From: Chitinophagales bacterium
Lineage (GTDB): Bacteria > Bacteroidota > Bacteroidia > Chitinophagales > Saprospiraceae
Length of the DNA stretch: 64,000 nucleotides
Assembly: GCA_013297745.1 (NCBI GenBank)
Contig: JAAFIM010000007.1
Location: 747-64,746 of the forward strand
Direction of reading: 5' to 3'
The position numbers and the translations under genes were made by a program. The notes under the pieces are model-generated. The model ran no database searches, was not told where the DNA came from, and was given only the letters and a program-made list of their open reading frames with translations. This document shows positions 7,694 to 54,153 of this stretch, in pieces (the stretch's first letter is position 1; each line of letters starts with the position of its first letter).

Positions 7694-10153
7694 TTATTCA
7701 AAAATAAGTCTCAACGTAAACGCATTCCAATCCGCCGCCGATTCTCCTTTTTGTCGTTGGCTGCGCAGTTGATTATCAACAGGCTTTTCCATATCTGCCA
7801 AAGGCAAACCATTTTGCAACCATTCGCTAATATCAAACCTGCCCCAACTAATTAGCACTTTTACATACGAAAATTGCGTTTTAGGGTTGCACTCCAACCC
7901 AAATACTTCGCTGCGAGCTTGAGTAAAAGCTATATTTTGATTAGTTGCCAAAGTTGTAGGTTCTATAATCGGCGTAATGCTGTAGTCGCGGCTCATATAC
8001 AGCAGCGCAACCTGCAAACTTTGGGTAGTATCCACTTGATTTTTATAACTCACCGAAGCCGCAAAATTAGCCACCCGCGCACTACCTTTGCTATTGGGTT
8101 GGGTTTGTATCAACAAAGGGCTATATTGGTTAAAATCTTGCTTAATGGGAATTTGATAGGTTTTATTAGCTGCCAAATCCTGTATATGTACGGTCAATTC
8201 TGCCCCCAAAAACGACTGCAAGCGGGCAGGGTGGGGATTGTGCAAAAATAATCTTTGTTTAAACATCGCCATCGTTTTCAACCAACCGCTCACTTCTACC
8301 GCTGACACCAAATCGGCTGGGCTGCTGGCGCGTGTCAAAGGCGTTTGGCGGGGACTGAGTAGTAAAAAACCATCATTTTGGCTGGCTACGTACACATCTA
8401 CGGGCGCATTTTCTGCTATGTTGGTATAAACGGGCAAAAAATTGCATAAAGGGCTGTCTTTAAACTCTGAAAAGTTGGGTTGAGTGCCTGCTTTTATCTT
8501 CAAAAACACCTCTTTGTCTTCAGGCAGTAGATAATCTATCAAACCCGACGTCCAAAATTCCTGATTTTCTACATTTATGGGTATAAATTTTAAAGTTTCT
8601 TCTAGATACTCCTTTGCGATAGCCGCCCAACCGCCCTTTTCTATCTCCCAAGCCTTACCATTTATAGAACGACAGGGGTATTTTTCGCTATCATTTGCCT
8701 TATTCTGCAAAATTCCGAACCGATACAGCAGTCCGCGCGCTGTAGTGGCGTTATTAAAATAGTTTTTGTACAAATAAACCGTGTAATTATCCGCGTACAG
8801 GCTAAATTCTGCATCGTCTTTGCCAATTTCTACCATATCGGGCATATTCTCAGCCAATAAATTGAGGAAAAAGGCGATATTTTCGTTCTCTTTGGTTGGC
8901 AATATGCCCACATTTAGCTTACTCGCGGCAACTACCAACTGTTCTGGGCGAATTTTGACATAAAATAACTCATTCCCGTTTGAATTTTGTACAAAATCGG
9001 GTACATTTTCCAACTCACAGAAGGCAGGGGCAACATAATTCACCCTCGCCACGCCCGTTTTATCCCGCAAGTTGCTAACTTCCACCTCAAAATGTTCGTT
9101 GGATTTCAATATCGGCAGCCCCTGAAGCGCGCCTATGTCTATTTTGTGTTTATATTCTTTGCTAATTCCGTCAAAAACGCTGATTAAATTATAACAAAAC
9201 TGCCTTTTTGCGCTATCTTGGTTCAAAAAACGGCGGAAGCGGGTGGTTTTATCCTCATTTTTGACATAAAGGCTGGGCGTTTGGGGAAACCCTTTTTCTA
9301 TAACCATTCTTAGCCTAATTTCTAACTCGTGGTAGCTGATATTTCCTGCGGTTATTTTCAACAATTTGCATAAATTGGTGGTAAAAATACCGCTTGGGCT
9401 GCCCGTTTCTTTGGTTTCATACGCACATTCGCTGTAGGCGCAAGCGCAGAGGTGTATATGGGGTGCTTCAGGCACCATTTTTTCAAAAGTTTGGGGCGTT
9501 ATTTGGGTAGAATTTTGGGTATTTTGTCGGTTTAAATTGCGGGTTATCTCTTCTGGGAAAGATTCGTACTGATTACTATCTCTTTTCTGCCCAAAGTTGG
9601 GGTGATTTCGGGGCAAAATTTCCCTTTTTTGGTAATTATCCGATTTCAAATCCTCCCCATAAGCGCGGGTGGCGCGTTCAGAATGGCAAGAATCTTGTAT
9701 GAATATAATCTCCACTTCTTTTTTATACATCAAACTGAATAATTGTCTAATCTCTACACTCAAAATATCAAAAATGGGTTTTCCCGCTTCAATAACCCCA
9801 CTATCACAGGGTACTAATGTGGATAAATAGCCCGTAGCCGATTGAAAATAAGGGTCGGCTTTCTCTTGCGAGCCGTGTCCAGCATAAAATAGGCAAAAAA
9901 TATCCCCTTTTTGTAATAAATTGATATGTTGTTGGATAGCCAGCAGTATATTCCTGCGGGTGGGTAAAGCGGTTTCGTTATTTTGGTGAGAACTGTACAA
10001 TTTTACCGTTTTTTGCTGATAAGTGTTTTTATCAATGTACAAATTGGCACAGGACAAAAAGGCTTCTGCATCGTGGATACAGCCGTATAAATTGCTTATT
10101 TTATCGTGTTGATATTTGTTGATAGCTATAGCTAAAGTATAAAATGTGGGCAT
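7694..10153 (-). CDS. Caspase-like (peptidase C14) domain protein with ~500-aa uncharacterised C-terminal region
   Basis: The N-terminal ~300 aa carry a caspase His-Cys dyad in canonical context: FYAGHGS (His) and IQDSCHSE (Cys). The remainder has no recognisable motifs. Confidence 0.7.
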   Translation of the reverse strand: MPTFYTLAIAINKYQHDKISNLYGCIHDAEAFLSCANLYIDKNTYQQKTVKLYSSHQNNETALPTRRNILLAIQQHINLLQKGDIFCLFYAGHGSQEKADPYFQSATGYLSTLVPCDSGVIEAGKPIFDILSVEIRQLFSLMYKKEVEIIFIQDSCHSERATRAYGEDLKSDNYQKREILPRNHPNFGQKRDSNQYESFPEEITRNLNRQNTQNSTQITPQTFEKMVPEAPHIHLCACAYSECAYETKETGSPSGIFTTNLCKLLKITAGNISYHELEIRLRMVIEKGFPQTPSLYVKNEDKTTRFRRFLNQDSAKRQFCYNLISVFDGISKEYKHKIDIGALQGLPILKSNEHFEVEVSNLRDKTGVARVNYVAPAFCELENVPDFVQNSNGNELFYVKIRPEQLVVAASKLNVGILPTKENENIAFFLNLLAENMPDMVEIGKDDAEFSLYADNYTVYLYKNYFNNATTARGLLYRFGILQNKANDSEKYPCRSINGKAWEIEKGGWAAIAKEYLEETLKFIPINVENQEFWTSGLIDYLLPEDKEVFLKIKAGTQPNFSEFKDSPLCNFLPVYTNIAENAPVDVYVASQNDGFLLLSPRQTPLTRASSPADLVSAVEVSGWLKTMAMFKQRLFLHNPHPARLQSFLGAELTVHIQDLAANKTYQIPIKQDFNQYSPLLIQTQPNSKGSARVANFAASVSYKNQVDTTQSLQVALLYMSRDYSITPIIEPTTLATNQNIAFTQARSEVFGLECNPKTQFSYVKVLISWGRFDISEWLQNGLPLADMEKPVDNQLRSQRQKGESAADWNAFTLRLIFE

Positions 10154-12163: not shown

Positions 12164-13084
12164 TTATGGTTTGAATTTTTTGTCTATAAATGCGCGCTCT
12201 TCATCAGTTAATTGTTCGCGGGTCATACTCTCTTTTCCGCCATTTTCATTTGGTTTTTTGTTTTTTCCTCCTGTGATATGAAACCCGTGGAAAGTAAAAG
12301 AATTGACATCATTTAGCTCTTTACTGTTGTACTTAAAAATAAGATAACAGCCTTTTTCTTCGTCCCAAACTGCTAGAGTGGAATCCTTTATTTGTATAGC
12401 TTTTTGTAGTAGGTTATTAGTAATTTTTTCTTTTTCTTCGCTTTCATTATATAAAAGTGGGCTAATCCATTGGCCTTTCTCTTGCCTTGCAAATTCAGCA
12501 CGATGGTGTTTATCACAATACTCAAAAACTCTAGGCTGGCGATTCTTTTTTAACCAATTTCGTAAATCACTTTCGTTACCAACTATATCAATTTTAACTA
12601 AAATAGGAAGATAAATAGATTCACGTAAAAAAGCTTCTTCATCTATTATAATAAGTTTACGAGCAAGTTTAGTATTATGTTCCCAAAATAAAAATTTATA
12701 AAAATTCGGTATGTTAGGCAGATAATATTCTATAAAATTAATGACTGCACTAGACCCAGAAAATTCAACGCAATACGCATTTTTATTTTGTTGTTCGTAC
12801 TCAAAATAAGTATGATTTTTTGAAATAGGAGTATCTATCCGTTCCATTTTTTGGAAAAAACTACTCACGCTGCTTGATAGCAGTTTAATATTTTTTGCTT
12901 TTAAATCTGCCATAATTTTTTCAACTACGTGATTTAAAATAATAATTTTACAATTTTTTTCAAAAAAAAGCCAGCGAAAAGTATCAAAAATTAGTTCTCT
13001 TGTTGACGTGTCCGTAAAAAGGTATGTATCATTTTTATCAAAGCCAGCGAAAACGATTAATTTTGTTTGTTCCATAATGAGCAT
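12164..13084 (-). CDS. Hypothetical protein, third gene of DUF262/ATPase cassette
   Basis: 306-aa ORF starting 6 nt after the ATPase stop. No recognisable motif. AT-rich. Confidence 0.5.
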   Translation of the reverse strand: MLIMEQTKLIVFAGFDKNDTYLFTDTSTRELIFDTFRWLFFEKNCKIIILNHVVEKIMADLKAKNIKLLSSSVSSFFQKMERIDTPISKNHTYFEYEQQNKNAYCVEFSGSSAVINFIEYYLPNIPNFYKFLFWEHNTKLARKLIIIDEEAFLRESIYLPILVKIDIVGNESDLRNWLKKNRQPRVFEYCDKHHRAEFARQEKGQWISPLLYNESEEKEKITNNLLQKAIQIKDSTLAVWDEEKGCYLIFKYNSKELNDVNSFTFHGFHITGGKNKKPNENGGKESMTREQLTDEERAFIDKKFKP

Positions 13085-13090
13085 ACTTTT

Positions 13091-14248
13091 TTAAAATCCC
13101 ACTAAAAATTCCCTATCAATATCCATTTGGTCAAAAAAACCACTTGGTGCATCTTTTATCCAATATCCTTCCACTATCGGCACGTGAATAGTTCTTGCTT
13201 CTTGGCTATTTTCATCGCGGTCTATGTAATAAATGGCCACATTATCGGGGCTTATGCCTTTTTTATCTTCAGCAAATTTTTTGCAAGCAACCAAAATACC
13301 ATTGATGAGGTGGTCGCTGTGGGTTTCTACCACCACTTGTACGCCCGCCTGTGCAGCGAGAGCTATTAATTCGGCAAGTTTAGCTTGTCCGCTGGGGTGG
13401 ATATGCGCCTCAGGATTTTCTAATAAAACCAAACCATCTTTGGGCGTAGCCAATAGAGCTAATACCACAGGCAAAGCATAAGAAATACCAAAGCCCACGT
13501 TTTGGGGTTTGTATTCAAGCGATGTAATAAGCCCTGCGGTTCTAAATCTAAAATTAAGTTTCAAAAAATCTTTATTATCAATAATGACCGCTTCAACACC
13601 TTCACTTATTTCTCCAAGCCAAGCGTTTACGTTTGAGGATAAATGTAAGTCATCTGCTTTTTCGTGTTTTAGTTGTATGTTAGCAAGTTCTTTGTTACCG
13701 TTAATACTTAAAACGTGTATTGCGTATTCTGCTTTTCCTTGTTTGTGAGAAATTTGACCTTTCTTTTCAGCAATTCGCCAACTTCTTGAATGGGTTTCTT
13801 TTGGTCCAATATGTTCAGTGGCAATATATTGAAATGCTAGACTTTCACTAAATAAAGCCGCTTTGATAGGAGCAAGAATTTTAGAATCTACACTTAATTC
13901 TAAATTATCTACGCTTTTGTCTACTTCATTATTGGGCAGCACAGGGAATACAAATTTGACATAATGATTTATATTGCTATCAAATTGTAAATCAAAAGCG
14001 ATAAAATTATCTTCAGCATATTCGCACAAAGCATCTTTAGCGTTGCCGACATTTACCAAGTCTTCGTTAAGCACCAAACCTTCTTGGAAAGAAGAACTTT
14101 TTAAATAAGATTGCCGCAATAATAATAAACTTTGTATAATGGAAGATTTACCTGCTCCATTTTTGCCTGTAACAACAGTCAAAGGTTTGCAAGTTAGTTC
14201 TGTATTGAGGTGTGATTTGTAATTTTGAATTTTTAGTTTTGTTATCAT
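13091..14248 (-). CDS. ABC-type/AAA_21-family ATPase (DUF3696-like C-terminus)
   Basis: Walker A VTGKNGAGKSS, Walker B/D-loop VLLENPEAHIHP, H-loop VETHSDHL. Its ATG overlaps the upstream stop in an ATGA quartet. Confidence 0.75.
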   Translation of the reverse strand: MITKLKIQNYKSHLNTELTCKPLTVVTGKNGAGKSSIIQSLLLLRQSYLKSSSFQEGLVLNEDLVNVGNAKDALCEYAEDNFIAFDLQFDSNINHYVKFVFPVLPNNEVDKSVDNLELSVDSKILAPIKAALFSESLAFQYIATEHIGPKETHSRSWRIAEKKGQISHKQGKAEYAIHVLSINGNKELANIQLKHEKADDLHLSSNVNAWLGEISEGVEAVIIDNKDFLKLNFRFRTAGLITSLEYKPQNVGFGISYALPVVLALLATPKDGLVLLENPEAHIHPSGQAKLAELIALAAQAGVQVVVETHSDHLINGILVACKKFAEDKKGISPDNVAIYYIDRDENSQEARTIHVPIVEGYWIKDAPSGFFDQMDIDREFLVGF

Positions 14249-15624
14249 AGTGCAAGTGTTTTGTCAATAATTTCTTTAATTTTTTCGTATCTTATTAGCA
14301 CATTTTGCTTGTGTCCTGTGCCTGTAGTGATGCTGTACGTAAAGTTTTTAGAACCTTGATTATCATTAAATAACTTTACAAACAAAAGATTAAAGTCTTG
14401 TTTGTATTGAACAATTTTTTGCTGTTCTTCTTTACTCAAACGCGCAAAAGAAACAGTTAGTACTTCAAATAAAGCCTTATTGATTGGATTGCGTTTTTTC
14501 TCTGAAATATCAAATCTTTTTCTAAAAGCATAATCCCCAAAAATTTTGCTAAGCGTGTTTATTGTTTCTTCAAACTTTTTTTCGATTTCCAATAAAGTAT
14601 TTTTGTCTGTATTAGTAATTTTTTTCATAACCTTATTTAAAAAACCGTCCATATCTGCTTGGTATTCGCTGTGTGGCAACAAATAAAAAGCTAGAAAACG
14701 AGTTATAAAATCGCAGTCTTCCATACGTTCGGAAGCAATAGCGTTATTGGTAATATCCAAAAAATGCGCGGAACTTGCTAATTTATTTATAAAAGTTGAT
14801 GCTTCTCTTGAATTAAGCGCGTGGCGAATTTCTTGGTCAGTGAGTAATAACCCACTAGTATTAATTCGTTTAAAAAGGTTAAATTTAACGACATCAGGCG
14901 AACTTGCGCTAACAATATAAGCAGTAATTGAAAACTCCTCTATCCTTGCGCGAAGGCTAGGACTTAGTTCCTTAAATGTTTTGTTTTTTAATCCTTGTGC
15001 ATTAAGATACTCTAAACCTTGCAATTTTAAAAAATCTTTATTTTTTCCATCTCCTTTTCCTAAAATAAAATGACTTATGGCGCTTATTCGCTGAAGCCCA
15101 TCTACCACTTGATAAACCCCATTTTCAATTTCCACAAAATAAAAAGCTGGTAATGGAAATGATAATAAAATTGATTCAATAAGTTGACTTTTTTGAGAAA
15201 AATTCCAAAGATGTGCTTTGCGTTGATAGGGCGGATTTAAGTCTATCAGTTTACTTTTTATTCTTGATATAATGTTAGAGATTACCATAGGTTTAACATC
15301 TATTCTAACATCTTTAGGATTTAGAAAAACATTTCCTACATTATCACTTTCATAGTTTTCTAGAAATTCTATTTCTTTTTCTACTTTTTGGCTTTTGAAA
15401 GAATAACAATTTGACTTACCTATTTTAATACAATCTATACTTTCGTCATATACTCTCATTTCTGGATTGGTTAAAGTGCTCAATGCAGAAGACACAGAGG
15501 CTTGCGGAGTTTTAGTTTCAAATATAAAATAATTCTTTTCCACAATGTAATCGTGGATTTCTTTAGCAGTAGCTGGTCTGCCTATTTCCTCCATTGCTAT
15601 TTTGCACGCTTCAATAAGTGTCAT
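14245..15624 (-). CDS. DUF262 (ParB/Srx-like, DGxQR) domain protein with N-terminal HTH (HARE-HTH-like)
   Basis: VVDGLQRISAI is a DGQQR-type motif. The N-terminal ~70 aa are a winged-helix-like module. 459 aa. Confidence 0.7.
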   Translation of the reverse strand: MTLIEACKIAMEEIGRPATAKEIHDYIVEKNYFIFETKTPQASVSSALSTLTNPEMRVYDESIDCIKIGKSNCYSFKSQKVEKEIEFLENYESDNVGNVFLNPKDVRIDVKPMVISNIISRIKSKLIDLNPPYQRKAHLWNFSQKSQLIESILLSFPLPAFYFVEIENGVYQVVDGLQRISAISHFILGKGDGKNKDFLKLQGLEYLNAQGLKNKTFKELSPSLRARIEEFSITAYIVSASSPDVVKFNLFKRINTSGLLLTDQEIRHALNSREASTFINKLASSAHFLDITNNAIASERMEDCDFITRFLAFYLLPHSEYQADMDGFLNKVMKKITNTDKNTLLEIEKKFEETINTLSKIFGDYAFRKRFDISEKKRNPINKALFEVLTVSFARLSKEEQQKIVQYKQDFNLLFVKLFNDNQGSKNFTYSITTGTGHKQNVLIRYEKIKEIIDKTLAL

Positions 15625-15640
15625 TTTATTATAATTTTAG

Positions 15641-15676
15641 TTTTTTAAAAAAAGCCCTCACTAAAGCGAGGGCTTT
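15641..15676 (-). terminator. Intrinsic terminator downstream of glnS
   Basis: The stem aagccctc/gagggctt is flanked by a T-run on the minus strand. Confidence 0.6.
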
Positions 15677-15699: not shown

Positions 15700-17388
15700 T
15701 TACGATTGTTTTTTCAACTCCTTAGCCCAGCTATCTTTTAGCTCTACGGTAAGGTTGAAAATGGGCGCGGCGGCTGCACTTTCCGTATCTACACAGAAAT
15801 AACCTTTGCGCATAAATTGGAAATGTTCGCCCGCTTTGGCATCGGCTAGGGATTTTTCCCCCCAAGCGGTGATGGTTTTGAGCGAGTTGGGGTTGATATA
15901 ATCGGTAAATTCTTCATCTTCGGGAATATCAGCCGCATTTTCTATAGTCAAAAGTCTGTCGTACCAGTTGATTTGTACGGGGTGGTAGTTGTTGGCATCT
16001 ACCCAATGGATAACGCCTTTTACTTTTAGCCCGCTGGTATCGCTGCCCGACTTGGAATTTTCTACATAAGAGGCGCGAATTTCTACCAAATTGCCGTTTT
16101 CATCCTTAATCAATTCCTCGCATTTGATAATATACGCGTGTTTTAGCCGCACATAACCGTTGGGGGTTAGCTTGAAATAGCCTTTGGGGGGATTTTCGTT
16201 GAAATCTTCTCTCTCTATAAAGATAGTGTTGGAAAAACTCAACTCGCGGTGTCCTGCGTTGCTGTCTTCTGGGTTGTTTTCGGCTGGCAATAGCTCGGTT
16301 TTGCCCGTTTCGTAGTTGGAAATGACCACTTTTATCGGGTCTATAACCGCCATTACGCGTTTAGAAATTTTATTCAAATCTTCTCGGATAAAATGTTCCA
16401 ATAAAGACACATCCAGCATAGATTCGCGCTTAGAAATACCCACTGCTACAGCAAAATCGCGTATAGCTTTGGCGGTATAACCTCTCCTGCGCATACCCGA
16501 AATGGTTGGCATTCGCGGGTCGTCCCAGCTATTAACTAATTGTTTTTCAACGAGTTTGAGCATCTTGCGCTTAGACATCACCGTATAGGTAAGGTTGAGG
16601 CGGGCAAATTCTATTTGTTGGGAGTTGTACAAGCCCAATTCTGCCAATAACCATTCGTAAAAAGGTCTGTGCGGCTCAAATTCCAGCGTGCAAATGGAAT
16701 GGGTAATGCCTTCCAAAGCGTCGGAAATCGGGTGCGCGAAGTCGTACATCGGATAAATACACCAGTTGTCGCCCGTGCGGTGGTGGTGCGCGCGTTTAAT
16801 CCTATAAATTACGGGGTCGCGGAGCAGCATATTGGGCGATGCCATATCAATTTTGGCGCGTAAAACACATTCGCCGTCCTTAAACTCGCCCTTGCGCATC
16901 TTTTCAAACAGGCTTAGGTTCTCTTCTGCGCTGGTTTCGCGGTAAGCATTGCCCGTTCCCGCTTGGGTGGGCGTGCCTTTTTGCTTGGCTATATCGTCAG
17001 GGCTGGAAAAATCCACATAAGCTAAGCCTTTTTTAATCAAGGTTTGTGCGCAAGTGTATAAATTTTCAAAATAATCGGAAGCATATTTCACCTCGCCGTC
17101 CCATTCAAAGCCCAACCAACGCACATCGTTTTGTATGGAATTGACATAATCCACTTTTTCTGTGGTGGGGTTGGTGTCGTCAAAGCGCAAATTGGTCGCG
17201 CCGCTGTATTTTTTGCCTAAACCAAAGTTCAAACAGATAGATTTGGCGTGTCCGATATGCAAAAAACCGTTTGGCTCTGGTGGAAAACGGGTCAAAACGC
17301 GCTTGTTGTGTTTGCCTGTTTCGTTGTCGTGTTCTATAATCTCCTCGATAAAATTGAGTGATTTGACTTCGTTGTTTTCTATATTCAT
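15700..17388 (-). CDS. glnS: Glutaminyl-tRNA synthetase
   Basis: HIGH motif (PEPNGFLHIGHAKS) and KMSKS variant (VMSKR). Class I GlnRS-like length and order. Confidence 0.9.
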   Translation of the reverse strand: MNIENNEVKSLNFIEEIIEHDNETGKHNKRVLTRFPPEPNGFLHIGHAKSICLNFGLGKKYSGATNLRFDDTNPTTEKVDYVNSIQNDVRWLGFEWDGEVKYASDYFENLYTCAQTLIKKGLAYVDFSSPDDIAKQKGTPTQAGTGNAYRETSAEENLSLFEKMRKGEFKDGECVLRAKIDMASPNMLLRDPVIYRIKRAHHHRTGDNWCIYPMYDFAHPISDALEGITHSICTLEFEPHRPFYEWLLAELGLYNSQQIEFARLNLTYTVMSKRKMLKLVEKQLVNSWDDPRMPTISGMRRRGYTAKAIRDFAVAVGISKRESMLDVSLLEHFIREDLNKISKRVMAVIDPIKVVISNYETGKTELLPAENNPEDSNAGHRELSFSNTIFIEREDFNENPPKGYFKLTPNGYVRLKHAYIIKCEELIKDENGNLVEIRASYVENSKSGSDTSGLKVKGVIHWVDANNYHPVQINWYDRLLTIENAADIPEDEEFTDYINPNSLKTITAWGEKSLADAKAGEHFQFMRKGYFCVDTESAAAAPIFNLTVELKDSWAKELKKQS

Positions 17389-17484
17389 AAAATAAAATTG
17401 TGTTTTGTGGTGGATAGAATTTTTTTTGCTGTATTTTGCAAAGTCGTTGAAAGGCTAAAAAGTTCCGTAAGAGGGAAGAGTTAT

Positions 17485-18186
17485 TTAACCCTCCACATTG
17501 CAGCGTTTAGCTATAAATTGATGTTTTAGGGCGTCAGCTATTTGTGTGCCTTCACATTGCAATTCTGTAAGTTGGCTTCTAGAAGGGTCTTTAGAAGGGT
17601 GTTGTAAAAAAGGGGCTAAAATAGCAAATAAGTCATTATCGCTTATACGCCCGCAATTCGTTAGGTTCAAAGTTGTTAAACTTGTGCAGCCTGATAAATC
17701 CAAGGTTGTTAAATTTGTGCAACGCGATAAATCTAAAGTTGTTAAGGCTTTACATCCCGACAAGTCTAATTGAGTTAATCCAACAAGACCACTAAAATTT
17801 ACTACGTTTAAATGCTCTAGTGAAGTTATTTGCATAGTGGGTAGTTGTTGGCAATTTATAACTCTTAGCTCTTTCAAATTAACTAATCCGATTTTTGCAT
17901 TTATCACCAAGTTTTCTAACACTGGGCACTCTGTAATTATTAATGTTTCTAGTTTTCGTAGAAGTTTGATAGGTTCTATGCTAGTGATATTAACTCTCAA
18001 AAGATTTAATTCCTGCAATTCTCTAATTGCTTTAAAGAAGTCAGAACGCTCAGTTTGGATATTATGGGGAATAACTTGAGTAAAAATAGTTCGCCAATCA
18101 ATACCAATAACATTATTCCACCAATCCGTTCTCGCTTCTTCATTGTCTAAAAAATACGGAGTTTTGCACTCATTGTATCTGGCCAT
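17485..18186 (-). CDS. Leucine-rich-repeat protein
   Basis: LTTLDLSGC/LTTLDLSRC/LTTLNLTNC repeats. Paralog of 18224..18862 with a shared N-terminal W-W motif. Confidence 0.65.
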   Translation of the reverse strand: MARYNECKTPYFLDNEEARTDWWNNVIGIDWRTIFTQVIPHNIQTERSDFFKAIRELQELNLLRVNITSIEPIKLLRKLETLIITECPVLENLVINAKIGLVNLKELRVINCQQLPTMQITSLEHLNVVNFSGLVGLTQLDLSGCKALTTLDLSRCTNLTTLDLSGCTSLTTLNLTNCGRISDNDLFAILAPFLQHPSKDPSRSQLTELQCEGTQIADALKHQFIAKRCNVEG

Positions 18187-18223
18187 AATAATTAATTTTT
18201 AAGGGTTAGAAAAGAGCATTTTT

Positions 18224-18862
18224 TTAATCAAAAACGACACAACCTTTATCTCTAAACTTATTTTTCATAGTCAAGCTAATGGCGCGCGTGCCTTTGCAAT
18301 GCAATTCTTTGAGTGGCAGGGCATTATTCAAAACAGGTTGTAAGTCTTTGGAAATAAAGTGTTTAGAGTGGCTACAATTCAGCGTTTGCAAGTCCAACAT
18401 ATTTTGTAAGAAAGAAAATTTTTCCAAATTTTTGCAGTTGGAGAAATTCAAGAAGGTTAGACTTGGCAATTTGGACAAATTGGATAAATTATCGCAATTG
18501 GAGCAATTAAGCAGCGTTAGGCTGGGCAATTTGGTTACGCTGATGAGTTGGGGGCAGTTGTTGCAAACCAAAGCGGTCAGGTAGGGCAGATTGGCGGCGT
18601 TGGTGAGTAGTGGGCAATTATAACAAACTATAGAGTTGATGTTGTTGAGATTGGCTATAGCATTGAAGTTTAAAATGTTTGTATTCGGACATTTTAATTT
18701 GGTGATAGCAGCAATTTTTTCAAAATTCGGTTTTTCAACGGTACAATCGGCGTGTTGGGTTAAGATAGTTTTCCATTCGGGTTCTACATTTTCCCACCAT
18801 TCGCTGGCAGCTTCTGTATCTTGGAGAAAGGTTACATCGTTGAAATCGGCGTATTTGGCCAT
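18224..18862 (-). CDS. Leucine-rich-repeat protein
   Basis: NCPLL/NCPQL/NCDNL/NCKNL LRR-like repeats. N-terminus similar to 17485..18186. Confidence 0.65.
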   Translation of the reverse strand: MAKYADFNDVTFLQDTEAASEWWENVEPEWKTILTQHADCTVEKPNFEKIAAITKLKCPNTNILNFNAIANLNNINSIVCYNCPLLTNAANLPYLTALVCNNCPQLISVTKLPSLTLLNCSNCDNLSNLSKLPSLTFLNFSNCKNLEKFSFLQNMLDLQTLNCSHSKHFISKDLQPVLNNALPLKELHCKGTRAISLTMKNKFRDKGCVVFD

Positions 18863-18896
18863 AATGATAAAATATAAAGGTTAGAGAAAATAAAAA

Positions 18897-19610
18897 TTAT
18901 CTGTGTACAGAAGTGGGAAAGTATGGGCTAAAATCGTCGTTCCAACTTGGTTTTGATTTTACATACCAAATTTTAAACGCTAAAAATTGGCTTTCAGGTT
19001 GCAATTCTGCTTTTATTCTGTCTGCGTAGATTGCTTGTTCAGGCTTATTTTCGTTGTCGTAAAAATCATCTTTAAGTTGGGTCAAATCTGCCATTGCTTC
19101 TACAAGCAGTTTCCGCAAAGCGGCCGCTTTCATCCTGCTAGCGGCTGGAGGTTTATAAGTTGAGTCTATTTTACAATCTGCATTATAAATCCGAGAAAGT
19201 AATTTTACTGTGTTTAAAGTAGTTGGGTCAGTTTCTGTGGTAGAAATATCTACTTTTTCCTTTGGATTTTTAAAGGCTGTTAGGAGAAAAGAAATTTTTT
19301 CGGCTATCAAAATTTGTGAGTTTGTACAATCTAAAATATCGCTAAACGATTCACCGCTTTTCCGCGAGTTGCAATAACTACAAGCGTACATTAGATTATT
19401 CCAATTAAATTTTTTATGAGGGTTAGTATAACCGTTTGTTGTGTGATTTTGATAATGTTCAACTATAAAATCTGTATCAATTTTTTTCTCGCATAAGTAG
19501 CATTTATGATGAAAATCTGCTTGCAATCGATTCAAAACATCTTCATCGTCATACTTTTTTTGCGCTGCTAAAGAAGTGGGCGCAGGTTGGGATTTATGAA
19601 AGTTTATCAT
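18897..19610 (-). CDS. HNH endonuclease (PtuB-like)
   Basis: HHKCYLCEKK...EHY...NLMYACSYCNSRK is an HNH/His-Me finger signature. It overlaps the upstream ATPase gene by 17 nt. Confidence 0.65.
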   Translation of the reverse strand: MINFHKSQPAPTSLAAQKKYDDEDVLNRLQADFHHKCYLCEKKIDTDFIVEHYQNHTTNGYTNPHKKFNWNNLMYACSYCNSRKSGESFSDILDCTNSQILIAEKISFLLTAFKNPKEKVDISTTETDPTTLNTVKLLSRIYNADCKIDSTYKPPAASRMKAAALRKLLVEAMADLTQLKDDFYDNENKPEQAIYADRIKAELQPESQFLAFKIWYVKSKPSWNDDFSPYFPTSVHR

Positions 19611-21087
19611 AACTGCTAATTTTTGCTTGATACAATTCCTTAGTTTCGGCTAATAAAATTTTAATCTCAGCAGCGCGAAATTTTGGCATTTCTTGGAGTT
19701 GATTGCGCAATTTTTGCAGCATTTGTATATCTTTTTTCGTGGGTTGTTCTAAGCTCAACAAATTTTCATAGTCTGCTTTTATTTGGTTCAGAAAGTTAGA
19801 AAATTTATCCACTTCAAAATGCGTTTCCACTATCGCTTCAGCAGGAAATCCAACTAATGGCTCATTTATAAGGTTATGATTTTCCAAATCATAAACTACT
19901 GCGTTATCTATAGAGGATAACACATAAGGCGAATGGCTGCTTACAATAAACTGTATATTTGGGAAAAAACTGGTTAAAAATGGTAAAATTTGCTTTTGCA
20001 GTGCAATGTGTAGATGAGTTTCTATTTCATCGATTATTACTATTCCCTGTATATTCTCAGGTTCAGCATACCACATTATTTTTTTAAATAAGTTATCTAT
20101 ACCTTCGCTATGAGAAGATACGGGAATAGACCGTCTTCTATTTTGGTGTGTAGATATTGTTGTTTTTATTTTTTCAATTCTAAGCAAAATTTCTGATAGA
20201 ATATAAACAATGGACTTAAACCCGTCTGACAACTGTTGTAAGCCTACAGGCTCGCGGCCTGGTAACTTTACATCAAAATAGTAATTGCGAGAATCGAATG
20301 TAAATTTAAATTCATTTCTTTCAATTTCTGAAATTTCAAAAATACTGCACAAGTAACTTTCAAAGATGTTGAACCAATTTTCTACTTCCGCTACTTCATC
20401 TTCATTTTTATTTAGTGAAGAGAAGGCTTGCTGTATGCGTTTTTGCATCAAATAGTGGATAAATTGAGAGTTTGCTTGTTCTCTAATACCTTGCTCTTCA
20501 AATTTGAATGCCTGAGTTGATTTTTCTGTTTGAGGTTTTAGAAAATCAAAATCACGTTGTGCTGGAATATAAGCAGTTACAAAAGGAACTTCGTAATAAT
20601 CAATAAATCCGTAAACTAATTGGTCAGTTGCGGAAAAATTGATTTTTCTTAGCCAATTTTCACTATTTTTACCTAACAAACTGACACTACCAAGTCGCTG
20701 TCGAGCCCCAAACCGAGCCCCAAAATCAATGGCTTGTTGTTCAAACTCATTATCAGAAATATGATTTTCTAATAGATTGATGTCGTCTAAAGAAAGATTA
20801 GAGTTTTCTTTAGCTTTTAGTAAGCTTTGGTGACTTATTTTTAGCTGGGCTTTAAGAGAAGATGTGTGAATTTGGAAAGTGGCACTTGAATATTCATTAG
20901 TTAAGTCTTGCAATTTATCGCGTATTTCTTCCAACACGGAACTCTTACCACTCCCATTTTTTCCTGTGAGGATTAGGTGGCGGCGAATATCTTTACCAAT
21001 TTCTATATGAATACGGCGTAGGTGGCGGCATTTTAGTATAAAAATATCAGTTAGAAAGTACTGCTCATAAAGTCCGTCCTTTTCCAT
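19594..21087 (-). CDS. AAA_21/ABC-type ATPase (PtuA-like)
   Basis: Walker A LTGKNGSGKSS. Walker B/H-loop VIIDEIETHLH...SSHSP. 497 aa. Visibly AT-richer than the adjacent Fe-S gene. Confidence 0.7.
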   Translation of the reverse strand: MEKDGLYEQYFLTDIFILKCRHLRRIHIEIGKDIRRHLILTGKNGSGKSSVLEEIRDKLQDLTNEYSSATFQIHTSSLKAQLKISHQSLLKAKENSNLSLDDINLLENHISDNEFEQQAIDFGARFGARQRLGSVSLLGKNSENWLRKINFSATDQLVYGFIDYYEVPFVTAYIPAQRDFDFLKPQTEKSTQAFKFEEQGIREQANSQFIHYLMQKRIQQAFSSLNKNEDEVAEVENWFNIFESYLCSIFEISEIERNEFKFTFDSRNYYFDVKLPGREPVGLQQLSDGFKSIVYILSEILLRIEKIKTTISTHQNRRRSIPVSSHSEGIDNLFKKIMWYAEPENIQGIVIIDEIETHLHIALQKQILPFLTSFFPNIQFIVSSHSPYVLSSIDNAVVYDLENHNLINEPLVGFPAEAIVETHFEVDKFSNFLNQIKADYENLLSLEQPTKKDIQMLQKLRNQLQEMPKFRAAEIKILLAETKELYQAKISSYDKLS

Positions 21088-21089
21088 AG

Positions 21090-21881
21090 TTAAAGTCCAT
21101 TGCTTTTGACTATCAATTCGGACAAATCCAACACCATAATACTATCTTGGCGTTCTTTTTCCTTGATGCCGTCTTGCAACATTGTGATACAGAAAGGGCA
21201 GTTGGCGGCTACTATAGTGGCGTTGGTTTCCAACAATTCTTCGGTGCGGGCTGTATTGATGCGCTTATTCCCTTTTTCGTCCTCTTTGAACATCTGCGCG
21301 CCGCCTGCTCCACAGCATAAACCGTTGGCGCGGCTGCGTTTCATTTCCACCAAATCCGCGTCCAATTGAGCCAATAATTCGCGGGGGGCTTCGTACACTT
21401 CGTTGGCGCGGCCGAGATAGCAAGAATCGTGATAGGTGATTTTTTTCCCTTTAAATTCGCCCCCTTGCACTTTCAACTTGCCTTCATTGACCAAAGATTG
21501 TAAAAATTGGCTGTGGTGCAGCACTTCATAAGAACCGCCCAAGGCTGGATATTCATTTTTGAGGATATTGAAACAGTGGGGGCAAGCGGTTACGATTTTT
21601 TTGACCTCGTACATATTCAACAGCATTATATTCTGTTGCGCTTGAGTTTGGAATACAAATTCGTTGCCTGCGCGGCGGGCTGGGTCGCCCGTGCAGTTTT
21701 CTTCTTTACCCAAAACGGCAAATTTTATCCCAACTTCGTTCAAAATTTTGCACATTGCTACAGTGATGCGTTGGGCGCGTTGGTCAAAACTACCAGCACA
21801 GCCCACCCAAAATAAAATTTCTGGTTTGTCGCCTGCTGCGTACATTTCTGCCATTGTGGGAATAACTAAAGGCTTGTTCAT
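21090..21881 (-). CDS. (Fe-S)-binding protein with two cysteine-rich CCG domains (LutA/GlcF/HdrD-like)
   Basis: VGCAGSF...TACPHCFN and GLCCGAGG...ANCPFC motifs. Confidence 0.75.
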   Translation of the reverse strand: MNKPLVIPTMAEMYAAGDKPEILFWVGCAGSFDQRAQRITVAMCKILNEVGIKFAVLGKEENCTGDPARRAGNEFVFQTQAQQNIMLLNMYEVKKIVTACPHCFNILKNEYPALGGSYEVLHHSQFLQSLVNEGKLKVQGGEFKGKKITYHDSCYLGRANEVYEAPRELLAQLDADLVEMKRSRANGLCCGAGGAQMFKEDEKGNKRINTARTEELLETNATIVAANCPFCITMLQDGIKEKERQDSIMVLDLSELIVKSNGL

Positions 21882-22028
21882 AATTATTAGTTGTTAGTGG
21901 TTAGTTGTTGATTAGCAATAATTTGTATGATTTTTGAATAAAGAGTAAATTTTTGTTCTGCGGAAATAATACAGAATTTTAAAAATAAGTGTGTAATAGT
22001 GGTATAAATTATTAAAGACATCAATTAT

Positions 22029-22252
22029 AAAAACTTGTGTTTTGAAATTTTTTTAACGGCTTACGCCTAAAAATTTTTTTTCTTCGTACTTTTTGCAGGC
22101 GCAAAAAGTACCAAAAACGCCCTGTTTCTATAAACTTGTTCGCTCCGCTTGCTAAAGCTGCGCTCCGTCTCACTTCAGACAGTATAGAAACTCAACGGAT
22201 TGGTGTAGTTACGCGCTTCGCGCGATTTTTTACTTTATTTTTGTCTACTTAC
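22029..22252. repeat. Structured repeat family 1, copy B (inverted relative to copy A)
   Basis: Reverse complement of copy A. The terminal gtctacTTAc supplies the stop codon of CDS 22249..22470. Confidence 0.8.
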
Positions 22253-22470
22253 ATATAGTCTTTTAAATCGTCCAAAGGTTCGTTAAAATCATCAGGAATA
22301 CTAAATCCCTTGCCTGCTAAACTGCCAAGTTTTACCCCTTTAGGAGGTTTTGTGTCTTGCTTGGCATCAGGTTTGGCTTCTTGATATTTGACTTTCAAAC
22401 GCTGCAATAGATTGACTATCAGTTGATAATCTTCATCATTATTAAATTCTAAAATTAAATTTTTTTGCAT
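22249..22470 (-). CDS. DUF2281-like small protein (putative antitoxin-type family)
   Basis: The C-terminal FSIPDDFNEPLDDLKDYM motif is characteristic of DUF2281, recalled from memory. Confidence 0.45.
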   Translation of the reverse strand: MQKNLILEFNNDEDYQLIVNLLQRLKVKYQEAKPDAKQDTKPPKGVKLGSLAGKGFSIPDDFNEPLDDLKDYM

Positions 22471-53939: not shown

Positions 53940-54014
53940 GGGCGGTTAGCTCAGCTGGTCTAGAGCATCTGCCTTACAAGCAGAGGGTCACAGGTTCGAA
54001 CCCTGTACTGCCCA
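53940..54014 (+). tRNA. tRNA-Val (anticodon UAC); no encoded CCA
   Basis: A cloverleaf can be folded by hand: acceptor GGGCGGT/ACTGCCC, D-arm GCTC...GAGC, anticodon loop CTTACAA, T-arm ACAGG-TTCGAAC-CCTGT. Confidence 0.9.
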
Positions 54015-54078: not shown

Positions 54079-54153
54079 GGGCGGTTAGCTCAGCTGGTCT
54101 AGAGCATCTGCCTTACAAGCAGAGGGTCACAGGTTCGAACCCTGTACTGCCCA
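54079..54153 (+). tRNA. tRNA-Val (anticodon UAC), identical duplicate; CCA encoded
   Basis: Identical 75-nt sequence to the first copy, followed by CCA. Confidence 0.9.

What the first reader, a model, noticed from the sequence alone, without database searches (positions are those of the whole stretch)
17485..18862. Two tandem paralogous leucine-rich-repeat proteins directly downstream of the Septu-like pair
Both proteins start with a similar ~50-aa W-rich N-terminal module (EAxxxWWxNV...W.TI.TQ) followed by 6-8 LRRs with Cys in the repeat (L..L.LS.C..L). They share strand, tight spacing and AT-richness with the ATPase/HNH pair, so they probably belong to the same inserted island.

LRR proteins are uncommon in free-living bacteria. 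Here they could be auxiliary sensors or effectors of the defence locus, or secreted host-interaction factors, though neither has a signal peptide.
Basis: partly seen in the sequence, partly recalled or inferred. Interest (0 to 1): 0.5.

Follow-up and report, generated by a model that had tools for sequence, protein, structure and literature searches.

The report
Core LRR gene plus swappable paralogue
The two small leucine-rich-repeat genes are real paralogues, but one is a conserved resident gene of this bacterial lineage and the other a strain-variable add-on, and relatives carry them without the neighbouring Septu defence pair, so they are not a fixed part of it.

Summary
ORFs 18224-18862 (LRR-A, 212 aa) and 17485-18186 (LRR-B, 233 aa) are paralogues (31% identity, E=3e-19). 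Each has a Trp-rich helical N-cap, about 7 Cys-type LRRs, a shared C-cap and no signal peptide. They lie directly downstream of a genuine PtuA/PtuB pair.

The "one inserted island" reading mostly fails. A near-identical strain (flanks about 99% identical) has CCG–LRR-A–glnS and lacks both Septu and LRR-B, as two separate precise indels. Across 8 haplotypes, LRR-A is always present and always 212 aa. Its dN/dS is 0.05-0.19, its GC3 is native-like (0.47), and it tracks the housekeeping flanks. Septu is present in only 2 haplotypes. The LRR-B slot is empty in 3 and holds a different paralogue in each of the other 5, all with low GC3 (0.23-0.28); one of these haplotypes clearly lacks Septu.

The "W-rich module" is the N-cap of a complete cap–LRR–cap unit. 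The same unit occurs three times in ~830-aa secreted proteins, one from a Cyclobacteriaceae genome. AlphaFold models (pLDDT 92 and 88) resemble internalin B and SDS22.

Best reading: both are cytoplasmic protein-binding solenoids. LRR-A binds a conserved partner. LRR-B is an exchangeable accessory binder at a defence-rich hot spot. A facultative link to Septu is not excluded, because the same four-gene order recurs in one divergent relative.

The parts
18224..18862 (-). LRR-A: 212-aa capped LRR protein and conserved resident gene. Helical Trp-rich N-cap (about residues 10-51), 7 LRRs of 20-26 residues with Cys in the ladder position, and C-cap 'LKELHCKGTRAIS..KNKFRDKGCVVFD'.
   Evidence: ORF. 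Orthologues at 61-99% identity are all exactly 212 aa. It lies upstream of glnS, with or without an intervening LRR-B, in every haplotype whose contig reaches that far. dN/dS is 0.05-0.19 and GC3 is 0.47. AlphaFold pLDDT is 92.3. Foldseek best matches are the InlB LRR domain (TM 0.70) and SDS22. The concave face is more conserved than the rest.
17485..18186 (-). LRR-B: 233-aa paralogue of LRR-A with the same N-cap, LRR and C-cap architecture. It is a strain-variable accessory gene.
   Evidence: 31% identity to LRR-A, E=3e-19. Its only close match among 5.8 billion proteins is itself; all other hits are LRR proteins at 49% identity or less over partial alignments. It is absent from the near-identical strain L008 as a precise indel running from the LRR-A stop to the LRR-B stop. 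GC3 is 0.28. Pfam LRR_4 scores 42.9 bits, above cut-off. AlphaFold pLDDT is 87.8.
17668..17745 (-). 33-nt tandem repeat (2.4 copies, 84% matches) inside LRR-B. It encodes the 11-residue half-LRR units LT(T/Q)LDLS(G/R)Cxx.
   Evidence: Tandem Repeats Finder; motif positions 137/148/159/170.
18187..18223 (-). 37-nt AT-rich LRR-A|LRR-B spacer. It loosely shares a '(C)TTTTCTAAC..TAAA..ATTATG' leader with the spacers before other LRR-B variants and with the PtuB|LRR-A spacer of this window.
   Evidence: Spacer comparison by eye across loci. This is a weak, AT-rich similarity that was not tested statistically.
18897..19610 (-). PtuB, the HNH nuclease of Septu. It is a neighbour and not part of the LRR unit.
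   Evidence: PADLOC PtuB 3.6e-50. Absent from L008, L013, L001 and L011. 72% identical to the PtuB of L006.
19594..21087 (-). PtuA, the ABC-type ATPase of Septu. It is a neighbour. The insertion replaces the last two codons of the CCG gene and the whole CCG|LRR-A spacer.
   Evidence: PADLOC PtuA 2.7e-83 and Pfam AAA_21. Boundary alignment. GC3 0.27.
21090..21881 (-). CCG-domain iron-sulfur protein gene: the conserved upstream flank of the locus.
   Evidence: NCBIfam and Pfam CCG-type hits. 99.2% identical in L008 and 96.2% in L001.
15700..17388 (-). glnS (glutaminyl-tRNA synthetase): the conserved downstream flank of the locus.
   Evidence: Pfam tRNA-synt_1c in orthologous loci. 98.9% identical in L008 and 87.5% in L001.

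Best explanation
The two genes are single-unit, doubly capped LRR solenoids: soluble cytoplasmic protein-binding modules with no catalytic domain. They have different evolutionary status, and neither is a fixed component of the adjacent Septu system.

LRR-A is a lineage-specific resident gene of this (probably Bacteroidota) clade. It is wedged between the CCG gene and glnS, inherited vertically with them, and kept under purifying selection. Its concave face is conserved, so it most likely binds a conserved cellular partner (inferred).

LRR-B occupies an exchangeable slot between LRR-A and glnS. Related strains leave the slot empty or fill it with quite different paralogues of foreign-like codon composition. 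Turnover probably occurs by recombination through the conserved flanks, with intragenic repeat changes adding variation.

Septu (PtuA/PtuB) is an independent presence/absence cassette in a second slot, between CCG and LRR-A. The whole neighbourhood is a recombining, defence-rich hot spot.

Most likely role of LRR-B (inference, low confidence): a binder of a variable non-self protein, such as a phage, mobile-element or toxin protein, acting as sensor, decoy or inhibitor.

Shown here: paralogy, architecture, synteny, the indels, selection and composition. Inferred: the binding partners and any defence role.
For: Paralogy and architecture:
- 31% identity between the two proteins, E=3e-19.
- High-confidence models showing a helical N-cap, LRR strands, and a C-cap helix and strand.
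- Foldseek matches to the InlB LRR domain (TM 0.70, rmsd 2.9 Å) and to SDS22. A PDB profile search matches RPP1 and internalins at E=1e-12 to 1e-15.
- No hydrophobic N-terminus and no transmembrane segment.

LRR-A is resident:
- It is present in all 8 haplotypes found and is always 212 aa.
- Its identity tracks the flanks: window versus L008 is CCG 99.2, LRR-A 98.6, glnS 98.9%; window versus L001 is 96.2, 74.5, 87.5%.
- dN/dS is 0.05-0.19, including between Septu-plus and Septu-minus strains.
- GC3 is 0.40-0.48 in the window, L008, L013, L009 and L001, near their flanks (0.43-0.54). It is 0.28-0.31 in L011 and L006.
- Concave positions vary at 43% of sites, against 61% for other LRR positions.

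LRR-B is exchangeable:
- It is missing from L008/L014-16, L001-3 and L011-12.
- Five different genes fill the slot: 233, 301, 213, >124 and >129 aa. L009 and L010 differ there although their LRR-A proteins are identical.
- GC3 is 0.23-0.28 in all variants.
- LRR-B contains a 33-nt internal tandem repeat.

Septu is independent:
- The two indels are separate and precise.
- L013 carries an LRR-B variant without Septu.

Hot spot:
- NsnA/B/C are only 48/57/38% identical between strains whose flanks are about 99% identical.
- A PIN toxin gene is present in L008 but reduced to a 21-codon remnant in the window.
Against: - The order PtuA-PtuB-LRR-A-second LRR recurs in L006, with PtuA 69%, PtuB 72% and LRR-A 61% identical. 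That could reflect a conserved functional block rather than a shared hot spot.
- Both Septu-positive haplotypes also carry an LRR-B. With so few haplotypes this is not statistically meaningful.
- No terminator-like site and no Bacteroidota-type -7 box (TAnnTTTG) lies in the spacers between CCG and glnS, so all genes could share one transcript.
- No binding partner is known for either protein, so the functional part is inference only.
- Most related contigs are short metagenomic fragments, and the upstream neighbour in L009/L010 is unknown.
Confidence: 0.6

Rival explanations
1. Four-gene Septu variant. LRR-A and/or LRR-B are accessory sensor or regulator subunits of PtuAB, as a retron RT-ncRNA module is in type I-A retrons. 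They recognise a phage protein and release or activate the ATPase-nuclease complex.
For: All four genes share the strand, with 34- and 37-nt spacers and no terminator-like sites between them. The same gene order occurs in the divergent relative L006, with comparable divergence of PtuA, PtuB and LRR-A. LRR-B shares the low GC3 of PtuA and PtuB. There is precedent for PtuAB being co-opted by an added sensing module (PMC12819146).
Against: LRR-A is intact and under purifying selection in 4 haplotypes where CCG directly abuts it and Septu is absent, and an LRR-B variant occurs without Septu in L013. Septu and LRR-B are separate indels relative to the near-identical strain. No PADLOC model, including the Septu models, hits either LRR protein. 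A literature search found no LRR-Septu link.
Confidence: 0.12
2. Immunity-type inhibitors. The LRR proteins are cytoplasmic stoichiometric inhibitors of incoming toxins from interbacterial competition, working as ribonuclease inhibitor does. The LRR-B slot would then be an orphan-immunity cassette site whose content tracks the toxins present in the community.
For: The proteins are cytoplasmic, non-catalytic LRR solenoids. They form a tandem paralogue pair with strain-to-strain cassette replacement and foreign-like composition.
Against: No toxin, Rhs, T6SS or other delivery gene lies next to the pair in any of the 8 haplotypes. No family-level match to known immunity proteins was found in Pfam or NCBIfam. 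LRR-A's conserved face and strict vertical inheritance fit a housekeeping partner better.
Confidence: 0.13
3. Exported effectors. The proteins leave the cell by a Sec-independent route, such as a contractile injection system or T6SS, and bind proteins of a eukaryotic host or prey. This would be analogous to internalins or to the LRR effectors of amoeba symbionts.
For: The fold is internalin-like. The Cys-type LRR resembles repeats in giant-virus-like LRR arrays (L005, L017). The first ~10 residues are conserved but modelled with low confidence, so they could be a targeting signal. LRR-B is hypervariable.
Against: There is no signal peptide and no T9SS C-terminal domain, although two other window proteins do carry that domain. 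XopL and XopAE models score 18-34 bits against cut-offs of 500-600. No injection-system genes were seen among the window genes that were scanned, or in the related loci. LRR-A's concave face is conserved rather than diversifying.
Confidence: 0.08

Closest known systems
Multi-unit secreted LRR proteins of Bacteroidota (uncharacterised, ~800-900 aa, e.g. P0151 and P0153; shorter relatives P0119 and P0121, the last from a Cyclobacteriaceae MAG)
   Same: They contain the same complete unit. It starts with a Trp-rich N-cap ('..EAL..WW..L..EW+.IF'), continues with an LRR block, and ends with a C-cap ('L..IYCDNT.IS......F....P.C.V.Y'). The N-cap profile matches each protein in 3 separate stretches. 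The full-length LRR-A/B profile covers positions 13-210 of single units.
   Different: Those proteins have a signal peptide, a ~190-aa N-terminal domain and three units, or fewer in the shorter relatives P0119 (one) and P0121. LRR-A and LRR-B are one bare unit with no signal peptide. Their LRRs are the Cys-ladder type of 20-22 residues, not the internalin-like 22-residue 'L..L.L..T.I.D(L/I)..L' type.
Internalin B LRR domain (Listeria monocytogenes, PDB 1oto, 1d0b, 2wqu) and other class 1 internalins
   Same: Overall fold: a helical N-cap followed by a short right-handed LRR solenoid. Foldseek gives TM 0.70 and rmsd 2.9 Å over 204 columns. The profile E-value against InlA is about 1e-13.
   Different: Sequence identity is only 15-20%. 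There is no signal peptide, no inter-repeat (Ig-like) domain and no LPXTG or GW anchoring module. The organism is Gram-negative. NCBIfam internalin models are not reached.
SDS22 (PPP1R7), the LRR regulatory subunit of protein phosphatase 1 (PDB 6mky, 6obn)
   Same: A small cytoplasmic all-LRR protein that works purely by binding a conserved partner on its concave face. It is the top Foldseek hit by E-value (6e-6).
   Different: It is eukaryotic and shares only fold-level similarity (17% identity, TM 0.50). No phosphatase partner is evident here.
Septu (PtuA ATPase + PtuB HNH nuclease)
   Same: The LRR genes are its immediate neighbours in the window and in L006.
   Different: Septu is defined and functions as a two-gene system (PMC12819146). 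The LRR genes match no Septu model. Relatives carry them without Septu.
Plant TNL/CNL-type LRRs (RPP1, ADR1, Roq1) and giant-virus LRR paralogue arrays
   Same: The repeat flavour 'L..L.L..C..L..L' with Cys in the ladder position. RPP1 is the best PDB profile hit at 3.5e-15. Giant-virus-like loci L005 and L017 carry tandem arrays of similar small Cys-type LRR proteins.
   Different: Those proteins lack the Trp-rich N-cap and the shared C-cap. There is no NB-ARC or TIR domain here. The similarity is confined to the repeats and may be convergent.

Membership tests
Leucine-rich repeat superfamily (capped LRR solenoid) | Tandem LxxLxLxx(N/C)xL repeats detectable by LRR profiles | tested here: met
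   LRR-B scores above cut-off on Pfam LRR_4 (42.9 bits, cut-off 27), LRR_8 and LRR_EndoS. LRR-A falls below Pfam cut-offs (21-23 bits), but its family profile hits PDB LRR proteins at E=1e-12 to 1e-15. There are 7 motif matches in each protein.
Leucine-rich repeat superfamily (capped LRR solenoid) | Curved solenoid fold with a parallel beta-sheet on the concave face and terminal caps | tested here: met
   AlphaFold models have pLDDT 92.3 and 87.8 and show regularly spaced strands, a helical N-cap, and a C-cap helix and strand. Foldseek gives InlB at TM 0.70. These are predictions, not experimental structures.
Septu defence system (as an additional component) | Consistent co-occurrence with PtuA/PtuB across relatives | tested here: not met
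   LRR-A occurs without PtuAB in haplotypes L008/L014-16, L013, L001-3 and L011-12. An LRR-B variant occurs without PtuAB in L013. PtuAB is present only in the window and L006.
Septu defence system (as an additional component) | Match to a Septu or other defence-system protein model | tested here: not met
   PADLOC gives 0 families for both LRR proteins, while PtuA and PtuB score 2.7e-83 and 3.6e-50.
Septu defence system (as an additional component) | Requirement of the LRR genes for PtuAB-mediated phage defence, or physical interaction with PtuAB | not testable with these tools
   This needs genetics, biochemistry or multimer structure prediction.
Bacteroidota multi-unit secreted WW-capped LRR proteins | Trp-rich N-cap plus C-cap bracketing the LRR block | tested here: met
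   The N-cap profile finds about 35 such proteins with E<=1e-3. The full-unit profile aligns positions 13-210.
Bacteroidota multi-unit secreted WW-capped LRR proteins | Signal peptide, ~190-aa N-terminal domain and three consecutive units | tested here: not met
   LRR-A and LRR-B are single units of 212 and 233 aa that begin directly with the cap and lack a hydrophobic N-terminus.
Class 1 internalins | Signal peptide, inter-repeat Ig-like domain and cell-wall anchoring module | tested here: not met
   None of these is present. NCBIfam internalin models are not reached by LRR-A or LRR-B.
T9SS cargo proteins | Sec signal peptide plus C-terminal sorting domain (TIGR04183-type) | tested here: not met
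   Neither LRR protein hits TIGR04183, whereas two other window proteins do at 26.7 and 39.8 bits. Neither LRR protein has a signal peptide.
T3SS LRR effectors (XopL, XopAE, YopM/IpaH type) | Family-level profile match and effector domain (e.g. an E3 ligase) | tested here: not met
   XopL scores 29.2 bits against a cut-off of 500 and XopAE 18 against 600. The matches are confined to the repeats, and there is no additional domain.
Polymorphic-toxin immunity proteins | Adjacency to a cognate toxin gene or to a toxin-delivery locus | tested here: not met
   No toxin or delivery gene flanks the pair in any of the 8 haplotypes. Orphan immunity genes would escape this test.

The most novel reading that the evidence does not exclude
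LRR-A and the swappable LRR-B together form a previously undescribed LRR-based recognition layer of bacterial immunity. LRR-A would be an invariant scaffold. The strain-variable LRR-B cassette would be the specificity subunit, with conserved caps and a variable LRR core, loosely like variable lymphocyte receptors or NLR sensor domains. The pair would detect phage proteins and could plug into neighbouring effectors such as PtuAB. That would explain why the four-gene order recurs in a divergent relative.
Probability: 0.1. Interest if true: 0.75.

Novelty: new member of a known kind. Interest (0 to 1): 0.3.

Why it matters
The result corrects a tempting guilt-by-association call. Tight spacing and a shared strand with a defence pair do not make a gene part of that system, and comparing strains separates resident genes from cargo here.

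It also identifies two things worth knowing. First, a complete cap–LRR–cap unit with a Trp-rich N-cap that Pfam does not model; it occurs in about 35 clusters of large secreted proteins, one from a Cyclobacteriaceae genome. Second, a small locus in which a conserved cytoplasmic LRR gene sits beside a slot holding a different LRR paralogue in almost every strain sampled.

If the variable paralogue proves to recognise phage or toxin proteins, it would be a rare bacterial case of stand-alone LRR modules serving as exchangeable specificity determinants. If not, the locus is simply an ordinary hot spot flanked by a lineage-specific gene.

Tried and rejected
- A genome-contig scan with the LRR-A family alignment found only an unrelated Mollicutes LRR fragment.
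- The metagenome-contig scan yielded one locus, which turned out to be the key one, L008.
- The third homology search, using a mixed LRR-A/LRR-B alignment, was saturated by generic LRR proteins. It added only P0119 and P0121 as carriers of the N-cap.
- Exact look-ups of the window's own LRR-A, PtuB and GlnRS found nothing on record, so the source genome's other strains could not be traced that way.
- The afdb50 fold library was unavailable.
- tblastn of LRR-A against phages and of LRR-B against plasmids found nothing.
- The viral-contig hit was a giant-virus-like LRR array without the caps.
- P0006 and P0007, the weakest LRR-A hits, lack the N-cap and were rejected as family members.
- P0150 and P0185, hits to the N-cap profile, are low-complexity repeat proteins and were rejected.
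- Literature searches for an LRR-Septu link returned nothing relevant.
- A deletion by recombination between the LRR-A and LRR-B 3' ends was considered as the origin of the LRR-B-less state. L008's 3' end is LRR-A-like right up to the stop codon, so the breakpoint sits at the stop codons and leaves no chimera.
- Whether Septu reached the same position twice or was inherited and then lost could not be resolved.
Full report
**Observation**

The minus strand of window 15700-21881 carries six genes in this order:
- a CCG-domain iron-sulfur protein gene (21090-21881)
- PtuA (19594-21087)
- PtuB (18897-19610)
- a 212-aa ORF, called LRR-A here (18224-18862)
- a 233-aa ORF, called LRR-B here (17485-18186)
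- glnS (15700-17388)

PADLOC models confirm a genuine Septu pair: PtuA 2.7e-83 and PtuB 3.6e-50. Neither LRR protein hits any defence model. The two LRR proteins align over their full length at 31% identity, E=3e-19. LRR-B passes the Pfam LRR_4, LRR_8 and LRR_EndoS cut-offs. LRR-A stays just below Pfam cut-offs, but its family profile hits solved LRR proteins (RPP1, internalins) at E=1e-12 to 1e-15. A motif count gives seven LRRs in each, with Cys where most LRRs have Asn. Neither protein has a hydrophobic N-terminus or a transmembrane stretch.

**What the proteins are**

AlphaFold models are confident: LRR-A has pLDDT 92.3 and LRR-B 87.8. Both show a helical N-terminal cap (helices at about residues 16-25, 28-38 and 47-55), a run of regularly spaced strands, and a C-terminal helix plus strand. 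Foldseek places LRR-A closest to the internalin B LRR domain (TM 0.70, rmsd 2.9 Å over 204 columns) and to SDS22.

The "W-rich module" is therefore the N-cap of the solenoid, not a separate domain. A 54-residue profile of this cap was searched against 1.84 billion representative proteins. It found no other small proteins. It did find about 35 proteins of ~800-900 aa, each matched in three separate stretches. These proteins have signal peptides. In those inspected, each cap heads an LRR block ending in '..IYCDNT.IS......F....P.C.V.Y'. This is the same C-cap as 'LKELHCKGTRAIS..KNKFRDKGCVVFD' in LRR-A. The full-length LRR-A/B profile aligns positions 13-210 to single units of these proteins. One shorter relative comes from a Cyclobacteriaceae MAG. 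Two window proteins carry T9SS sorting domains, so the host is probably a member of Bacteroidota. LRR-A and LRR-B are thus bare, signal-less single units of a cap–LRR–cap module that also builds these large secreted proteins.

**Comparison with related strains**

LRR-A has only a handful of relatives among 5.8 billion proteins, all exactly 212 aa, at 99, 86, 75, 66 and 61% identity. Their contigs give eight haplotypes:

| Haplotype | Loci | Gene order |
|---|---|---|
| i | window | CCG–PtuA–PtuB–LRR-A–LRR-B(233 aa)–glnS |
| ii | L008/L014, L015, L016 (three samples, LRR-A 99%) | PIN–CCG–LRR-A–glnS |
| iii | L013 (same 90%-identity cluster as the window's LRR-A; dN 0.008) | CCG–LRR-A–LRR-B variant (301 aa)–glnS |
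| iv | L009 (86%) | LRR-A–variant (213 aa)–glnS |
| v | L010 (LRR-A protein identical to L009) | LRR-A–a different variant (partial, >124 aa) |
| vi | L001-3 (75%) | CCG–LRR-A–glnS |
| vii | L011-12 (66%) | CCG–LRR-A–glnS |
| viii | L006 (61%) | PtuA–PtuB–LRR-A–another N-capped LRR (partial, >129 aa) |

In L009 and L010 the 58 nt upstream of LRR-A match neither the CCG end nor the PtuB end.

Nucleotide alignment of the window to L008 shows 97-98% identity over CCG and LRR-A and 94.8% over glnS plus its upstream spacer. There are two separate gaps. Window 18866-21098 (Septu) and window 17573-18219 (LRR-B) are both absent from L008. The Septu indel replaces the last two CCG codons and the whole CCG|LRR-A spacer. 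The LRR-B indel runs from the LRR-A stop codon to the LRR-B stop codon and leaves no chimera.

**Status of each gene**

LRR-A behaves as a resident gene:
- Its protein identity follows the flanks. Window versus L008 gives CCG 99.2, LRR-A 98.6 and glnS 98.9%. Window versus L001 gives 96.2, 74.5 and 87.5%.
- Pairwise dN/dS is 0.05-0.19, including Septu-plus versus Septu-minus pairs.
- GC3 is 0.47, close to CCG and glnS at 0.52. LRR-A GC3 also lies near the flank values in L008, L013, L009 and L001 (0.40-0.48 against 0.43-0.54). It is lower in L011 and L006 (0.28-0.31).
- Predicted concave-face positions vary at 43% of sites, against 61% for other LRR positions. This argues for a conserved ligand rather than an arms race.

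LRR-B behaves as cargo:
- Its only close match in the database is itself; all other hits are LRR proteins at 49% identity or less over partial alignments.
- Its slot is empty in three haplotypes and holds a different gene in each of the other five.
- Every variant has GC3 of 0.23-0.28, like PtuA/PtuB (0.27/0.29) and NsnABC (0.23-0.27).
- It contains a 33-nt tandem repeat encoding 11-residue half-LRRs.
- The variants are mosaic. The window LRR-B has an N-cap closer to LRR-A (38%) than to the other variants (16-23%). An 88-nt stretch of its LRR core is 85% identical to the L009 variant.

**Relation to Septu**

Septu is present in two of the six haplotypes whose upstream side is known. It is absent from the closest strain. 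L013 carries an LRR-B variant without it. [quoted passage not shown] The idea of an accessory sensor is therefore not absurd, but the evidence here does not support an obligate link.

Three points remain in its favour. The same four-gene order occurs in L006, with PtuA 69%, PtuB 72% and LRR-A 61% identical. Both Septu-positive haplotypes also carry an LRR-B. No terminator-like site or Bacteroidota-type -7 box lies in the spacers. With so few haplotypes the co-occurrence has no statistical weight. I could not decide whether Septu was inherited and repeatedly lost or was imported into a recurrent slot.

The neighbourhood as a whole is a recombining, defence-rich hot spot. NsnA/B/C differ by 43-62% between strains whose flanks are about 99% identical. 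A PIN toxin gene upstream of CCG is present in L008 but reduced to a 21-codon remnant in the window.

**Mechanism**

- Shown: both proteins are predicted soluble, doubly capped LRR solenoids without catalytic or export signals.
- Inferred: LRR-A binds a conserved cellular partner on its conserved concave face.
- Inferred, low confidence: LRR-B is an exchangeable binder for a variable non-self protein from a phage, mobile element or toxin.

Rivals are a four-gene Septu variant, immunity-type toxin inhibitors, and Sec-independent exported effectors. None is excluded. Each lacks its defining context: consistent co-occurrence with PtuAB, an adjacent toxin or delivery gene, or a secretion signal.

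**Verdict**

The proteins are new members of a known kind, capped LRR binders, with a modestly interesting hypervariable paralogue slot.

Noticed in passing
window 12164-15624 (minus strand): A three-gene NsnA/NsnB/NsnC-type defence system (PADLOC 4.9e-117, 1.4e-94, 2.3e-11) lies between glnS and a rhodanese gene. In the near-identical strain L008 the same slot holds alleles only 48/57/38% identical, although the flanks are about 99% identical. This indicates allele replacement at a fixed site.
   Followed up: partly
window 21908-22470 (minus strand): A 73-aa antitoxin-like ORF (22249-22470) is 55% identical to the 84-aa gene that precedes a PIN toxin gene in L008 and L014-16. In the window the PIN gene is reduced to a 21-codon remnant (21908-21970, 81% identity), leaving an orphan antitoxin.
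   Followed up: partly
window 7694-10153 (minus strand): An 819-aa protein has an N-terminal caspase (Peptidase_C14) domain (Pfam 4.7e-17; PADLOC 'caspase' 1.4e-12) and a long uncharacterised C-terminal region. An 820-aa caspase-domain ORF occupies the same position in L008.
   Followed up: no
L009 59-1378 and L010 59-1108: Two contigs from different sequencing runs encode identical LRR-A proteins (dS 0.016) but carry different downstream LRR-B variants. The two variants share only their first ~72 nt (89% identity). This points to very recent cassette replacement, with a breakpoint inside the 5' end of the variable gene.
   Followed up: partly
window 18863-18896 and 18187-18223: The PtuB|LRR-A spacer resembles the LRR-A|LRR-B spacer ('TTTTCT(C)TAACC..T.A.ATT.AT.ATTATGGCCA'). 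It does not resemble the CCG|LRR-A spacer of Septu-less strains. The LRR-A leader was therefore replaced along with the Septu insertion. The sequences are AT-rich and the similarity was not tested statistically.
   Followed up: no
L005 3224-7177 and L017 6329-8888: Giant-virus-like contigs carry tandem arrays of small Cys-type LRR proteins that begin 'MCI(I/V)C..'. Their repeats ('LP.L..L.C..C..L..IP') resemble those of LRR-A, but they lack its caps. This could be convergence or distant exchange of repeat units.
   Followed up: no
window 53940-54014 and 54079-54153 (plus strand): Two tRNA genes lie 65 nt apart and have identical Rfam scores (70.4 bits each), so they are probably a tandem duplicate.
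   Followed up: no
window 15651-15676: A 9-bp GC-rich palindromic hairpin lies just downstream of the glnS stop codon. It is the only strong terminator-like structure between the CCG gene and NsnA, and the scan called it on the plus strand.
   Followed up: no
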